From contig JASGHG010000001.1 in NCBI GenBank assembly GCA_047602425.1, positions 4,096,001 through 4,160,000 on the forward strand: a stretch of DNA of 64,000 nucleotides. Reading direction: 5' to 3'. Position 1 is the stretch's first letter. Each line of letters begins with the position of its first letter. Under the pieces are notes generated by a model, which was given only the letters and a program-made list of their open reading frames with translations, was not told the DNA's origin and searched no databases. Both the position numbers and the translations under genes were made by a program. The stretch is from Nibricoccus sp. Its GTDB lineage: Bacteria > Verrucomicrobiota > Verrucomicrobiia > Opitutales > Opitutaceae. Shown in pieces: positions 33,973-36,457 of this stretch.

Positions 33973-34305
33973 ATGAAAGGCGTCTCTATCGCGTCGCTAG
34001 TTTTCGCCGGGCTGCCGCTGGTCATTTATCCGGTAGTTGCGCTGGCGGATATTATGAGTCTCGCAGGACAGTCATCAGGCGCTGAATCTGTCATGTTGAG
34101 TGTCGTTGCTACGACCTGTCAGATCGGCTCGCTCCTGTATCCAGCCGTGTATTTCCTCTGCCTTGCATTGTACCGGAAGAAGATGAAGCAGGATGAGCAG
34201 AAAAGCGCTTTTTGGTTTAGCCTTACACCCATGGCAGTCCTCCTTTTTCTATTTGCGATGTTTTATCTGTGGTCACGCGTGGACCATACAGCATGGGCGC
34301 CTTAA
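33973..34305 (+). CDS. Gene-cassette-encoded small membrane protein (3 TM), unknown function
   Basis: ATG 2 nt after core GTTCGGC; stop 6 nt before exact inverse core GCCGAAC; low GC. Confidence 0.8.
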   Translation: MKGVSIASLVFAGLPLVIYPVVALADIMSLAGQSSGAESVMLSVVATTCQIGSLLYPAVYFLCLALYRKKMKQDEQKSAFWFSLTPMAVLLFLFAMFYLWSRVDHTAWAP

Positions 34306-34311
34306 GACGGA

Positions 34312-34326
34312 GCCGAACCAGGCGCT
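34312..34326 (+). other. attC site, left part (interrupted by IS110 element)
   Basis: GCCGAACCAGGCGCT; joins to 36085-36163 to give an imperfect hairpin. Confidence 0.8.
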
Positions 34327-34489
34327 CCCCTTTAGGTAAAATCAAGGGGTAAGTTTGATTTTGCCGTCAGGGGGGAGAGGGGCGAGTCCGAGAATGGGCC
34401 TCCAGCTCGTCGGAGGACGAGCCCCGGGGGGCAGGATGTAGCAGGTGGTTTTGGTTACATGAGATGGATATGGTTTTGGCGCTTTAACC

Positions 34490-34670
34490 AGGAGCCCGGT
34501 CCTCCGCGACGATCCCCATGAGTTGGTCCAGCTTTTGAGGGCTGGCCCGGACGATACTTAAAGGGCGGTAAGACCGGGAGGCCCGCCGTCGGGGCTTTAA
34601 AACATACAGTTGAGCATCAGCGAGGCTGTGCGGAACGGCTGGTGGCCCTCAAGCGGCGGGTTTCCCGGAA
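34490..34670 (-). ncRNA. Candidate bridge/seek RNA of the IS110 element
   Basis: Two stem-loops with similar scaffold; loop 1 segments match the attC target and loop 2 segments match the circle junction; ends approximate. Confidence 0.65.
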
Positions 34671-34712
34671 AAGCAAAAGTTAATGTCGGCTAAAATAGAT
34701 CAAGGAAGTGGT

Positions 34713-35978
34713 TTAGGCGGCGGAGCGGAAAACGCGCTTCGGGTCGAAGGGTTGGGGCGAGCGTTCAAGGCCGTGGAGCAGTTTGAGGAACTTGCGGGCG
34801 ACCGCGGTCATGGCTTTGCCGCCGCACATGCCGGTGTCGCGTTTGGCGTGGTAGTATTGCCCGTAGAGTTGTCCGTGCACGACGCGTTTGAGGACGGCTT
34901 GGGCGAGGACGTGGCGCAGGCGGGCGCGGCCGCGTTTGGCTTGGCGGAGCTGGCCTTGCATGGTGCCGCTTTGGCGGGGCCGCAGGTTGAGCCCGCCGTA
35001 GCGCCAGAGTTGGCGCACGTGGGCAAAGTCCCGGAGCGGTCCGGTCTCGGCGAGGACACGGGCGAGCATGAAGGGGCTGATCAGGTCGGGATGGGCTTGC
35101 AGGCGGGTGGCGCCGCGGGCGCGCAGGCGTTCGACCAGGGCGATCATTTGCTGGCGGGTGTTGGTTCGGCGGGTGCGCAGCACGGTGAGTTCGGCAAAGA
35201 GGGCGCGCAGGTCCTCGGCGAGCAGGGCCAGCCAGTCGGGGTCGGAGTCGATCAGGGCGCAGCGCTGGGCGTCGGCGAAGAGTCGCTGGATGGTCTTTGG
35301 GCCAACGTGGTGGTTGCGCAGTTTGGCGGTGCAGCGTTCCAGGCCGTCGGCGAGGATCGCGGCGGCGTTCAGGCCGTAGAGTGCGATCGTGGCTTGGGCG
35401 GCGCGGCCTTCGAAGAGCCAGTCGTTTTTAAAGCTCAATTCGGGGAAGAGCGAGAGGAGCAGTTTATGAATCCTGTTTTTACAGCGGGTGGAGTCGCGTT
35501 CGAGCCGGTCGTAGCGGGCGTTGAGTTCGCGCAGGAGCAGCCACTCGCCTTGGAGGGGACGATCGGTCAGGGTTTTGTTCCATTTGGCCAATAGTAAAAT
35601 CGTGCGGGGATCTTTGATGTCGCTTTTGCCGGTATCGTTGTTCTCGACCACTTGCATCTGGTGGACGGCTTCGCCGTTGACCAAGGCGGTGGCGCAGCCG
35701 AGTTGGCGGGCCGCGCGCAGCAGGCGCCGTTCGTATCCGCCGGTGGGTTCGCAGAGGATGCGCACGCCGCCAAGGCCGTGCTGGCGGGCGTGGGTGTTGA
35801 GTTGTTCCAGCCATGAGAGGATGGCCTCATTGCGATTGGCGATATGGCCTTGGTGCGCCTGGGCCCCGAGTTCACCGTACCAGTCCAGTGCTTTTTGCCC
35901 AACGTCGACGGCGATATCCCAGCGAGTTTCCGGTTGCCCGGAGTGCGTTCTGCCATTAAGTGCTTTGTTCGTTATCAT
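34713..35978 (-). CDS. IS110-family DEDD recombinase/transposase
   Basis: RuvC-like DIAVDV, CEPTGGY, KSDIKD; C-terminal LAETG..F, YGGL, RQSG catalytic Ser, KRG..LR, AVARK; ORF intact (421 aa). Confidence 0.95.
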   Translation of the reverse strand: MITNKALNGRTHSGQPETRWDIAVDVGQKALDWYGELGAQAHQGHIANRNEAILSWLEQLNTHARQHGLGGVRILCEPTGGYERRLLRAARQLGCATALVNGEAVHQMQVVENNDTGKSDIKDPRTILLLAKWNKTLTDRPLQGEWLLLRELNARYDRLERDSTRCKNRIHKLLLSLFPELSFKNDWLFEGRAAQATIALYGLNAAAILADGLERCTAKLRNHHVGPKTIQRLFADAQRCALIDSDPDWLALLAEDLRALFAELTVLRTRRTNTRQQMIALVERLRARGATRLQAHPDLISPFMLARVLAETGPLRDFAHVRQLWRYGGLNLRPRQSGTMQGQLRQAKRGRARLRHVLAQAVLKRVVHGQLYGQYYHAKRDTGMCGGKAMTAVARKFLKLLHGLERSPQPFDPKRVFRSAA

Positions 35979-36084
35979 TGTTAGATTGCGGCTCCGGCTA
36001 AGGAGTGCCGGTTACGTGCTTGTCACCGTCCAGTCCATGCCGGGGCCGCTTCCTTATGTTATCTCATCCGCCTATTAGTAGCAT

Positions 36085-36163
36085 ACAGCGCAACGCCTAT
36101 GATCGTCCATTTTCTTTTTATCCCTGCCCGCTGGTACGGCGTGGCTGACCTGTAACGTTGGCT
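36085..36163 (+). other. attC site, right part
   Basis: ACAGCGCAACGCC...GGCGTGGCTGACCTGTAACGTTGGCT; pairs ACGCC/GGCGT, CAGC/GCTG, CAGG/CCTG, AAC/GTT. Confidence 0.8.
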
Positions 36164-36175
36164 TAAAAACACGCT

Positions 36176-36457
36176 ATGCGCCTCGGACTGATTTTTATCG
36201 GTATCATACTTATCGTCGGGGGATTTTCCGGCATCAGGAACAACTCGACATATCGCTTATCCCGGACTTACAGCTCTCGTGAGCTTAGGAGTTTGCCGCG
36301 AGAAAAGTGGGGCGACCAGACGGACGATCCAGTGGTGAACTCGCAAGCGATAGGATGGTTAGCGATTGGGTCAGGATGCTTCATAGTGGTCGCGTCGGTT
36401 TCAGTAAGACGACTTCGTTTCCCGCGGGCCAACCAACAACGCTCCACTCGAGAATGA
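36176..36457 (+). CDS. Gene-cassette-encoded small membrane protein (2 TM), unknown function
   Basis: ATG 12 nt after core GTTGGCT; complementary GGCCAAC at 36427-36433 inside its 3' end. Confidence 0.65.
   Translation: MRLGLIFIGIILIVGGFSGIRNNSTYRLSRTYSSRELRSLPREKWGDQTDDPVVNSQAIGWLAIGSGCFIVVASVSVRRLRFPRANQQRSTRE

What the first reader, a model, noticed from the sequence alone, without database searches (positions are those of the whole stretch)
34490..34670. Readable bridge/seek RNA: two twin loops encode the attC target and the element's own junction
Seen in sequence (minus strand, just downstream of the recombinase stop): two hairpins share a scaffold, guide-CCG..CAGCC(C)UC..GCUG..AACU. 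Loop 1 is closed by CCCGCCG/CGGCGGG. It has ACCAGCCGUU (+34634-34643), an 8/10 match to the left target flank ACCAGGCGCT (34317-34326), and CUGUA(U) (+34604-34609), the reverse complement of T-ACAG at the right flank. Loop 2 is closed by CCCGGUC/GACCGGG. It has AGUAUCGU (+34551-34558), a 6/8 match to the element end AGTAGCAT (36077-36084), and GGGGAU (+34512-34517), the exact reverse complement of the circle junction AT-CCCC. In both long guides the penultimate mismatch is a G-U/G-T wobble only if the RNA is the minus strand. Established: IS110/IS1111 recombinases use a non-coding RNA with target- and donor-binding loops. Inference: this is a programmable RNA-guided recombinase from Verrucomicrobia aimed at attC, with guides reading the strand opposite to the recombinase gene and an effective core of only 1-2 nt. 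The matches are short and were found by eye.
Basis: partly seen in the sequence, partly recalled or inferred. Interest (0 to 1): 0.93.

Follow-up and report, generated by a model that had tools for sequence, protein, structure and literature searches.

The report
Bridge RNA of attC-targeting jumping gene
This stretch very probably encodes the guide RNA of a jumping gene: its four short guides spell out the integron sites it lands in and its own two ends, so it is a known kind of RNA-guided recombinase, here from a separate lineage whose donor and target need share only one base.

Summary
The region lies downstream of a 421-aa IS110-family recombinase, in a 1,758-bp element present 9 times in the genome, each copy at the same base of an integron attC site. 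In this copy alone each guide match is chance-level. Across 39 related elements all four guides change with their own targets and ends (p ≤ 1e-4, also on 11 clusters), and 32 of 35 stem pairs show compensatory changes. The principle, attC targeting and the 'reversed' guide order are all published for IS1111 elements (PMC11187229). What differs: the protein forms its own long-branched clade apart from the IS1111 proteins tested (AU p = 0.054, so a sister relation is not excluded). The inverted repeats are short (4 bp here), the junction lies 2 nt from the ISKpn4/ISPa25 site, and target and donor share only one base (T9; position 8 shared in 5 of 24). The target loop's 3' guide continues into the donor, like IS621 handshake guides. 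The shared sequence scaffold between the loops is not above chance. Expression and activity are untested. Verdict: new variant of a known kind.

The parts
34327..36084 (-). Whole insertion sequence, 1,758 bp, counting one copy of the 1-nt core (36084); the other copy is 34326
   Evidence: Identical ends and different flanks in 9 genomic copies; empty attC sites carry the core base once
34713..35978 (-). IS110-family recombinase, 421 aa; D25, E77, D120, D123 and S337
   Evidence: PF01548 + PF02371; E77, D120, D123, S337 invariant and D25 in at least 90% of 42 aligned homologs; model pLDDT 86, best PDB matches IS621 and ISCro4
34491..34677 (-). Predicted bridge/seek RNA: two stem-internal loop-hairpin modules; true 5' and 3' ends unknown
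   Evidence: Consensus fold and pair counts; covariance model span
34582..34660 (-). Target-binding loop module (outer helix 34654-34660 with 34582-34588; inner helix 34645-34650 with 34591-34595; apical hairpin 34618-34629)
34634..34642 (-). Left target guide, 9 nt, ending at core T9; same sense as the attC top strand 34318-34326
   Evidence: Match 0.76 cognate vs 0.47 permuted, n = 28
34603..34609 (-). Right target guide (34606-34609), core A (34605) and two handshake-like bases (34603-34604) that match the element's own end
   Evidence: 0.83 vs 0.43 (n = 31); following two bases vs donor 0.91 vs 0.48 (n = 32), vs target 0.18 vs 0.22
34495..34578 (-). Donor-binding loop module (helix 34565-34578 with 34495-34507; apical hairpin 34528-34545)
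34551..34558 (-). Left donor guide, against element end 36077-36084
   Evidence: 0.95 vs 0.68 (n = 32); only 6/8 in this element
34511..34517 (-). Right donor guide (34514-34517), core A (34513) and two following bases; the second tracks target position 7
   Evidence: 0.99 vs 0.53 (n = 28); second base vs target 0.64 vs 0.32, p = 0.067 at the coarsest clustering
34333..34336 (+). 4-bp subterminal inverted repeat, right end
36071..36074 (-). 4-bp subterminal inverted repeat, left end
34340..34345 (-). -35-like hexamer; in the circle it lies 17 nt from a weak -10-like hexamer at 36075-36080 (3 of 6)
   Evidence: inference that it is the junction promoter
34312..34326 (+). attC, proximal part (R'' box 34312-34318, spacer, first 3 nt of L''); left target 34318-34326
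   Evidence: nhmmer attC profile E = 3e-20 on the IS-free sequence; box names from my own knowledge of attC
36085..36163 (+). attC, distal part (rest of L'', loop, L', R' box at 36157-36163); right target 36085-36088
33973..34305 (+). Cassette-like ORF (110 aa) ending just before R''
   Evidence: no Pfam family
36176..36457 (+). Cassette-like ORF (93 aa) starting just after R'
   Evidence: no Pfam family

Best explanation
The stretch encodes the bispecific bridge RNA of an IS110-family element. [quoted passage not shown] Inferred from IS621: the element circularises, a junction promoter drives the gene and the downstream RNA, two recombinase dimers bind the loops, and the DEDD/serine site cuts target and donor 3' of an invariant T9. 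After strand exchange the 3' guide of each loop re-pairs with the incoming strand. Here target and donor share only T9. In the target loop, position 8 is written for the donor, so it acts as an extra handshake base that should favour insertion. Insertion splits the attC L'' box, an intergenic and abundant site, and probably blocks cassette excision at that site (inferred).
For: Guide-DNA covariation for all four guides at three levels of dereplication, with cross-controls at chance. Relatives with the same scaffold but different left target guides each match their own site 9/9: L024, L026, L028. 32 of 35 pairs compensatory, score 0.674 vs 0.233 shuffled and at most 0.114 slid. In the host genome, 9 of 52 attC sites are occupied; occupied sites have 1-2 guide mismatches (Mann-Whitney p = 3e-5) and the base read by the right guide at position 11 in 8 of 9 vs 12 of 43 empty sites (Fisher p = 0.001). 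Catalytic residues are conserved and the fold matches IS621/ISCro4. The 9-nt left guide, invariant T9 and position-7 handshake match the IS621 rules (PMC11208158).
Against: No transcript, pull-down, circle or activity was observed. This element's left donor guide is only 6/8. 8 empty attC sites have as few mismatches as occupied ones. The -10 box is weak in this element, and no promoter-like site was found in 34250-34900. Donor-loop handshake support is weaker (p = 0.067 on 8 clusters), and donor-loop position 8 follows neither partner cleanly. Homolog ends were placed by motif, with hand choices. L052 and L059 have the RNA but no attC box at the right end. Two occupied sites share 398 identical bases on one side, so the 9 copies are not all independent insertions.
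Confidence: 0.88

Rival explanations
1. Only the target loop works, as a short processed seekRNA; the ends are recognised by protein and loop 2 is dispensable.
For: Short 70-100 nt target-only RNAs dominate IS1111 pull-downs (PMC11187229). A target-loop-only pathway is reported for another IS110 element (bioRxiv 2025.10.25.684509). The left donor guide has drifted in this element.
Against: Both donor guides track the ends across the family (0.95 and 0.99) and the loop 2 helices are fully compensated. The inverted repeats are short, median 5 bp. A processed target-loop RNA may well exist alongside the full RNA.
Confidence: 0.06
2. An ordinary member of the published IS1111-attC group (ISKpn4, ISPst6, ISPa25).
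For: Same attC arm, downstream RNA and guide order. AU test does not reject a sister relation with IS1111 proteins (p = 0.054). No ISKpn4-group protein was in my tree.
Against: 421 aa vs 330-350 aa. 4-bp vs 7-17 bp repeats. IS4321 aligns at E = 0.026 only. No plasmid relative with high identity: the 30 best of 166 records are 24-30%. The clade sits on a stem of about 2 changes per site and groups with Bacillota proteins at SH-aLRT 98. The RNA model finds nothing in the four IS1111-type loci searched or next to them.
Confidence: 0.03
3. The guide matches reflect chance plus shared ancestry, and the hairpins are a terminator or other structure.
For: Each match alone is common in shuffles. Kin share both RNA and ends.
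Against: The signal persists on 8-10 clusters at 60% identity, while wrong-partner controls stay at chance. Flanks are host DNA, not inherited with the element. Site choice within one genome follows the guide. No terminator-like site was found.
Confidence: 0.02

Closest known systems
IS621 / ISCro4 bridge RNA systems (PMC11208160, PMC11208158)
   Same: RuvC-DEDD plus serine domain; target loop then donor loop, each a simple internal loop with two guides; 9-nt left target guide; invariant T9; position-7 handshake; short inverted repeats; junction promoter.
   Different: RNA is downstream of the gene, not upstream; guide polarity is reversed relative to the gene; protein is about 100 aa longer and 16-20% identical; core is one shared base rather than CT; target is attC rather than REP.
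IS1111-attC elements ISKpn4, ISPst6, ISPa25 and their seekRNAs (PMC11187229; Table 1 of PMC13604230)
   Same: Downstream non-coding region; top-strand complement precedes bottom-strand match; insertion into the same arm of attC, with the R'' box downstream of the element's right end.
   Different: Different protein clade and length; 4-bp instead of 7-17 bp repeats; junction 8 nt from the R'' GTT versus 6 nt in the published table (core-assignment conventions could shift this); donor loop is a simple internal loop, whereas many IS1111 RNAs are described with a multi-loop.
IS110-type elements with a 3' non-coding region (the exceptions noted in PMC11187229, section 6)
   Same: No or short inverted repeats, downstream non-coding region, long transposase class (395-455 aa).
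   Different: Members, targets and guide order of that group were not given in the text I saw, and the figures are not held; I could not test whether this clade is that group.
CazIS110-1 (bioRxiv 10.1101/2025.10.25.684509)
   Same: Top-strand-dominated integration would explain why both junctions of all 9 copies follow one strand.
   Different: Relationship of the proteins not tested; the strand bias here is inferred from junction sequences only.

Membership tests
IS110 family bridge recombinase | PF01548 + PF02371 with DEDD and catalytic serine | tested here: met
   NCBIfam NF033542 scores 110.5, below its cut-off of 140.
IS110 family bridge recombinase | Non-coding RNA with target and donor loops whose guides covary with both DNA strands | tested here: met
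IS110 family bridge recombinase | Handshake guides pairing with the non-cognate DNA | tested here: met
   Target loop 0.91 vs 0.48; donor loop position 7 0.64 vs 0.32, weaker after clustering
IS110 family bridge recombinase | Core dinucleotide shared by target and donor (IS621 type) | tested here: not met
   Position 8 shared in 5 of 24, position 10 in 3 of 23; only T9 is shared
IS110 family bridge recombinase | Sigma-70-like promoter across the circle junction | tested here: inconclusive
   A -35-like TTGA hexamer is seen in most right ends with a 3-5 of 6 hexamer 17-18 nt on; 3 of 6 in this element; no control run
IS110 family bridge recombinase | RNA is expressed, bound by the protein and needed for movement; circular intermediate | not testable with these tools
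   No RNA holder listed; contigs only, no joint seen
IS1111 group | Long non-coding region downstream of the gene | tested here: met
   386 nt here; 248-459 nt in 27 homologs
IS1111 group | Top-strand complement 5' of bottom-strand match | tested here: met
IS1111 group | Subterminal inverted repeats of 7-17 bp | tested here: not met
   4 bp here; median 5 bp, at least 7 bp in 5 of 24
IS1111 group | Transposase of 330-350 aa related over its full length to IS1111 proteins | tested here: not met
   421 aa; E = 0.026 to IS4321; separate clade, though AU p = 0.054 does not reject sisterhood
IS1111-attC subgroup | Same insertion point as ISKpn4/ISPst6/ISPa25 | tested here: not met
   8 nt from the R'' GTT in 26 of 33 ends vs 6 nt in the review table; conventions may differ
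IS1111-attC subgroup | Protein related to TnpKpn4/TnpPa25 | not tested
   No such protein was obtained from the collections; other IS1111-type proteins served as proxies
Integron attC site (target) | R''-L''-L'-R' palindrome after a gene, with an integron integrase in the genome | tested here: met
   52 sites, mostly in arrays; two integrases over cut-off in the host and at least one in 5 of 5 homolog genomes checked

The most novel reading that the evidence does not exclude
An undescribed clade of bridge recombinases with a third layout (long IS110-type protein, short repeats, downstream IS621-shaped RNA with IS1111 polarity) that reached attC independently and has stayed on one attC base across several phyla by rewriting its guides. 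It needs only one shared T between donor and target, uses position 8 as a third handshake base, and resolves products on one strand. That would make it a natural bridge recombinase without a dinucleotide core constraint.
Probability: 0.5. Interest if true: 0.65.

Novelty: new variant of a known kind. Interest (0 to 1): 0.47.

Why it matters
The core dinucleotide is named as a limit on bridge-recombinase targeting (PMC13604230). A natural family in which target and donor differ at position 8 in 19 of 24 elements shows how that limit may be relaxed and gives ready candidates to test. It is also comparative evidence for a true donor loop and handshake pairing in an element with IS1111-type polarity, which bears on the seekRNA-versus-bridgeRNA question. 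It suggests attC sites were colonised more than once by RNA-guided elements; here 9 of 52 sites in one genome are occupied.

Tried and rejected
Twin sequence scaffold: not above chance. Penultimate wobble as a family rule: rejected. Rfam: no family matches the RNA region. Promoter/terminator scan of 34250-34900: nothing. Expression: no RNA holder listed; one DNA run laid as contigs gave partial cover and no joint. My hairpin-fold test of reconstituted homolog attC sites was badly built and closed the correct ends in few cases, so I do not use it (second half). The careful tree did not finish; both trees are quick trees. Metagenome scan with the single protein gave only 3 full loci. Phylum-wide search found 2 of 400 other genomes. 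Motif searches of the Durrant supplement found no row from this clade, only one unnamed relative resembling the Bacillota group; that file was cut when stored and holds representatives only. Tetu & Holmes 2008 is not held. No solo RNA copies in the host: 9 model hits, all in the 9 elements, with 150 of 789 candidates scored. No complex prediction was sent.

Full report
Observation. The minus strand folds better than shuffles (z -2.59 and -2.26). Taken alone, each match occurs in 11-37% of 3,000 dinucleotide shuffles, all four in 0.2%, and all four in order in none (thresholds chosen after the fact). The claimed common sequence scaffold is not above chance: 1,277 of 2,000 shuffles align as well, and 1 of 28 family members reaches p < 0.05. 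No Rfam family covers the region.

The element. The ORF at 34713-35978 (minus) is a 421-aa IS110-family protein (PF01548, PF02371), below the NCBIfam cut-off for the generic model (110.5 vs 140). E77, D120, D123 and S337 are invariant and D25 nearly so in 42 aligned homologs, picked by hand from 120 listed. The predicted structure (pLDDT 86) matches IS621 and ISCro4 best, at 16-20% identity. The genome holds 9 copies, about 99% identical, with the same ends and different flanks, which fixes the element at 34327-36084. One copy is interrupted inside its left donor guide by a 1,305-bp IS3-type element with a 3-bp duplication (family name from the Pfam set and my own knowledge).

The target. After removing the copies in silico, a profile seeded on the occupied sites found 52 attC sites, 9 of them occupied, all at the same base and orientation (divergent sites may be missed). 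Two integron integrases pass the cut-off, both far from this window, where the site stands alone between two cassette-like ORFs. Empty sites carry the junction T once, and both junctions of every copy carry it, so the shared core is one base. Occupied sites have 1-2 mismatches to the 13-nt guide-predicted target, empty ones 1-9 (p = 3e-5). The base read at position 11 is C in 8 of 9 occupied and 12 of 43 empty sites (Fisher p = 0.001). Against this: 8 empty sites match as well as occupied ones, position 5 shows only a trend (4 of 9 vs 7 of 43, p = 0.08), and two occupied sites share 398 identical bases on one side, so they are not independent. The cut lies after the third base of the L'' box, next to what I take to be the extrahelical base (box names from my own knowledge).

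Homologs. I gathered 83 loci: 2 from the phylum search, 4 from metagenomes and 77 from genomes, the last being the best 80 of 345 stretches. 38 of them plus this element went into the guide table. Left out by hand were 14 distant loci under 30% identity (mostly Bacillota), partial genes without a usable downstream end, 10 repeats or near-copies of elements already in the table, and loci where my anchor motif failed or the RNA was truncated or expanded (L017, L027, L054, L065, L075, L077, L079). Of 39, 28 had a readable right junction, 32 a left end and 24 both. Ends were placed from DNA motifs, with hand choices where two adjacent A's allowed either; guides were read from fixed alignment columns.

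Covariation (20,000 permutations, floor p = 5e-5). Cognate versus permuted match: left target guide 0.76 vs 0.47; right target guide 0.83 vs 0.43; left donor guide 0.95 vs 0.68; right donor guide 0.99 vs 0.53. All four stay at p ≤ 1e-4 with 26 clusters (80% identity) and 11 clusters (60%; 8-10 usable). Wrong-partner controls sit at chance (0.25 vs 0.26; 0.18 vs 0.22). L024, L026 and L028 have one scaffold and three different left guides, each matching its own flank 9/9; L025, L029 and L038 match poorly. The two bases after the core in the right target guide match the element's own end (0.91 vs 0.48). In the right donor guide the second base matches the target (0.64 vs 0.32; p = 0.067 on 8 clusters), while the first follows neither partner cleanly (target 0.46 vs 0.35; donor 0.38 vs 0.17). 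The core letter is invariant in the three guide columns checked in 39 of 39. Target and donor share position 8 in 5 of 24 and position 10 in 3 of 23; T9 in homolog targets is partly built into my end motif, so the direct proof of the one-base core comes from the host genome.

Structure. The consensus of 28 sequences gives two stem-internal loop-hairpin modules with the guides in the loops. 32 of 35 pairs have changes on both sides, 91.6% of cells pair, and the score is 0.674 against 0.233 shuffled and at most 0.114 slid (the structure was derived from this alignment). G-U pairs in the stems favour the gene strand as the RNA. A covariance model built from it also finds loci outside the training set, including L017, L079 and L065, and nothing in the Bacillota or reference IS loci (27 matches in 69 sources). 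In held-out L017 the right target guide with its handshake bases matches the left junction over 9 nt; its right end I could not place. In run X1 one contig, nearly identical to this element, has a change at 34638 that converts the left guide to the commoner attC variant; it is a single contig at depth 4 and may be an error.

Family target. With right ends placed without any attC motif, 26 of 33 have the R'' GTT exactly 8 nt on and 29 of 33 within 7-10 nt (background 5.8%); 4 loci gave no end and 2 were too short. Misses: L043 has a 4-nt repeat at the junction, L072 was mis-picked (one search gives 8 nt), and L052 and L059 lack the box. 5 of 5 homolog genomes checked have an integron integrase over cut-off. 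Titles include Verrucomicrobiota, Desulfobacterota-type Deltaproteobacteria, Nitrospirota and Bacteroidota.

Mechanism. In IS621 the left guides pair with 9 bases of the bottom strand, the top strands are cut 3' of an almost invariant T9, the first core base is less conserved, and handshake bases pair with the other DNA at position 7 after exchange (PMC11208158; passages; section 12). Read on the strand opposite the gene, this family follows those rules, except that position 8 differs between partners and is written for the donor in the target loop. As both IS621 cuts lie 3' of the core (PMC13626964 methods passage), a mismatch at position 8 needs no new chemistry (inference). All 9 copies show the same strand's version at both junctions, which fits top-strand-only integration as reported for CazIS110-1 (bioRxiv passages) or biased repair. 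A -35-like hexamer in the right end and a weak -10-like hexamer 17 nt on in the left end would form a promoter in the circle (no control). Transcription, processing, binding and activity are all inferred.

Comparison. seekRNAs of attC-targeting ISKpn4, ISPst6 and ISPa25 are published, and the guide order seen here is the IS1111 order (PMC11187229: passages, sections 6 and 9, parts of supplements 1 and 3). So the 'opposite strand' feature is known. Membership of IS1111 fails on repeat length (4 bp here, median 5, at least 7 in 5 of 24, vs 7-17) and on protein length and similarity. In quick trees the clade has SH-aLRT 100 on a long stem; with long branches and near-copies left out (22 of 38 rows kept) it groups with about 430-aa Bacillota proteins at 98, but the AU test does not reject sisterhood with the four IS1111-type proteins (p = 0.054). 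No ISKpn4-group protein was in the tree; the IS1111 label of ISKpn2 and two unnamed references rests on similarity to IS4321 and recall. The published ISKpn4 and ISPa25 junctions lie 6 nt from the R'' GTT (PMC13604230 Table 1, passage), 2 nt nearer than here, if conventions agree. PMC11208160 (passages; supplement searches; one PDF unreadable, one file cut, figures not held) predicts RNAs in 93% of IS1111 elements and notes multi-loop donor modules in many. The ISPpu10 preprint (listing and passages) raises a role for target hairpins, untested here. Tetu & Holmes 2008, Post & Hall 2009, Perry 2025 and Pelea 2026 I saw only as citations; they, and preprint supplements, could bear on novelty.

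Novelty. Seven literature searches listed no paper describing this clade or a one-base core; the terms 'single-nucleotide core' and '1-bp core' had no occurrences in the 7 papers listed. The library lacks most subscription papers. Earlier notes of this scan describe several attC-targeting IS110/IS1111 elements in other genomes, so the theme is recurrent; a sequence look-up found none like this protein. Verdict: real, well supported by comparison, works like an IS621-type bridge system, not a member of IS1111 by its defining features; new variant of a known kind; interest 0.47.

Noticed in passing
G000:C1:290760-292064 (L113); also C1:329777-331081 and C1:5019982-5021286: A 1,305-bp IS3-type element in three near-identical copies; one sits inside the left donor guide of an IS110 copy with a 3-bp duplication and breaks that copy's donor loop.
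   Followed up: yes
G000:C1:293183 and C1:924317, attC-distal flanks: Two IS copies in different arrays are followed by the same 398 bases (distal attC plus next cassette) but preceded by different cassettes; IS plus cassette may have moved or recombined as a unit.
   Followed up: partly
L084-L088, L090-L098 (25-27% identical relatives, mostly Bacillota): By eye these have a long downstream non-coding region and end in a Shine-Dalgarno-like GGAGG just before start codons, suggesting a group that targets ribosome-binding sites; their RNA does not match this family's model.
   Followed up: no
L054, L065, L075, L079, downstream of the gene: Rhodothermota/Bacteroidota members have expanded loops with extra hairpins; the RNA model scores them weakly or not at all.
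   Followed up: partly
L043, L051, L068, L089 right junctions: Imprecise-looking junctions: a 4-nt repeat of the end in L043 and a 1-nt shorter distance to R'' in the other three.
   Followed up: no
L052 and L059 right ends: Same RNA and donor guides but no attC box in the flank; possibly a branch retargeted away from attC.
   Followed up: no
L027:1404-1528 and 2160-2341: Two RNA-model hits in one locus, the first truncated after the target loop.
   Followed up: no
G000:C1 about 287-303 kb, 919-930 kb, 5,131-5,148 kb: Three attC arrays, two beside an integron integrase and one without, plus scattered single or paired sites including this window's.
   Followed up: partly
window 34327-34490: About 160 nt between the donor loop and the right end hold a further hairpin with partial counterparts in the 80% relatives; role unknown.
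   Followed up: no
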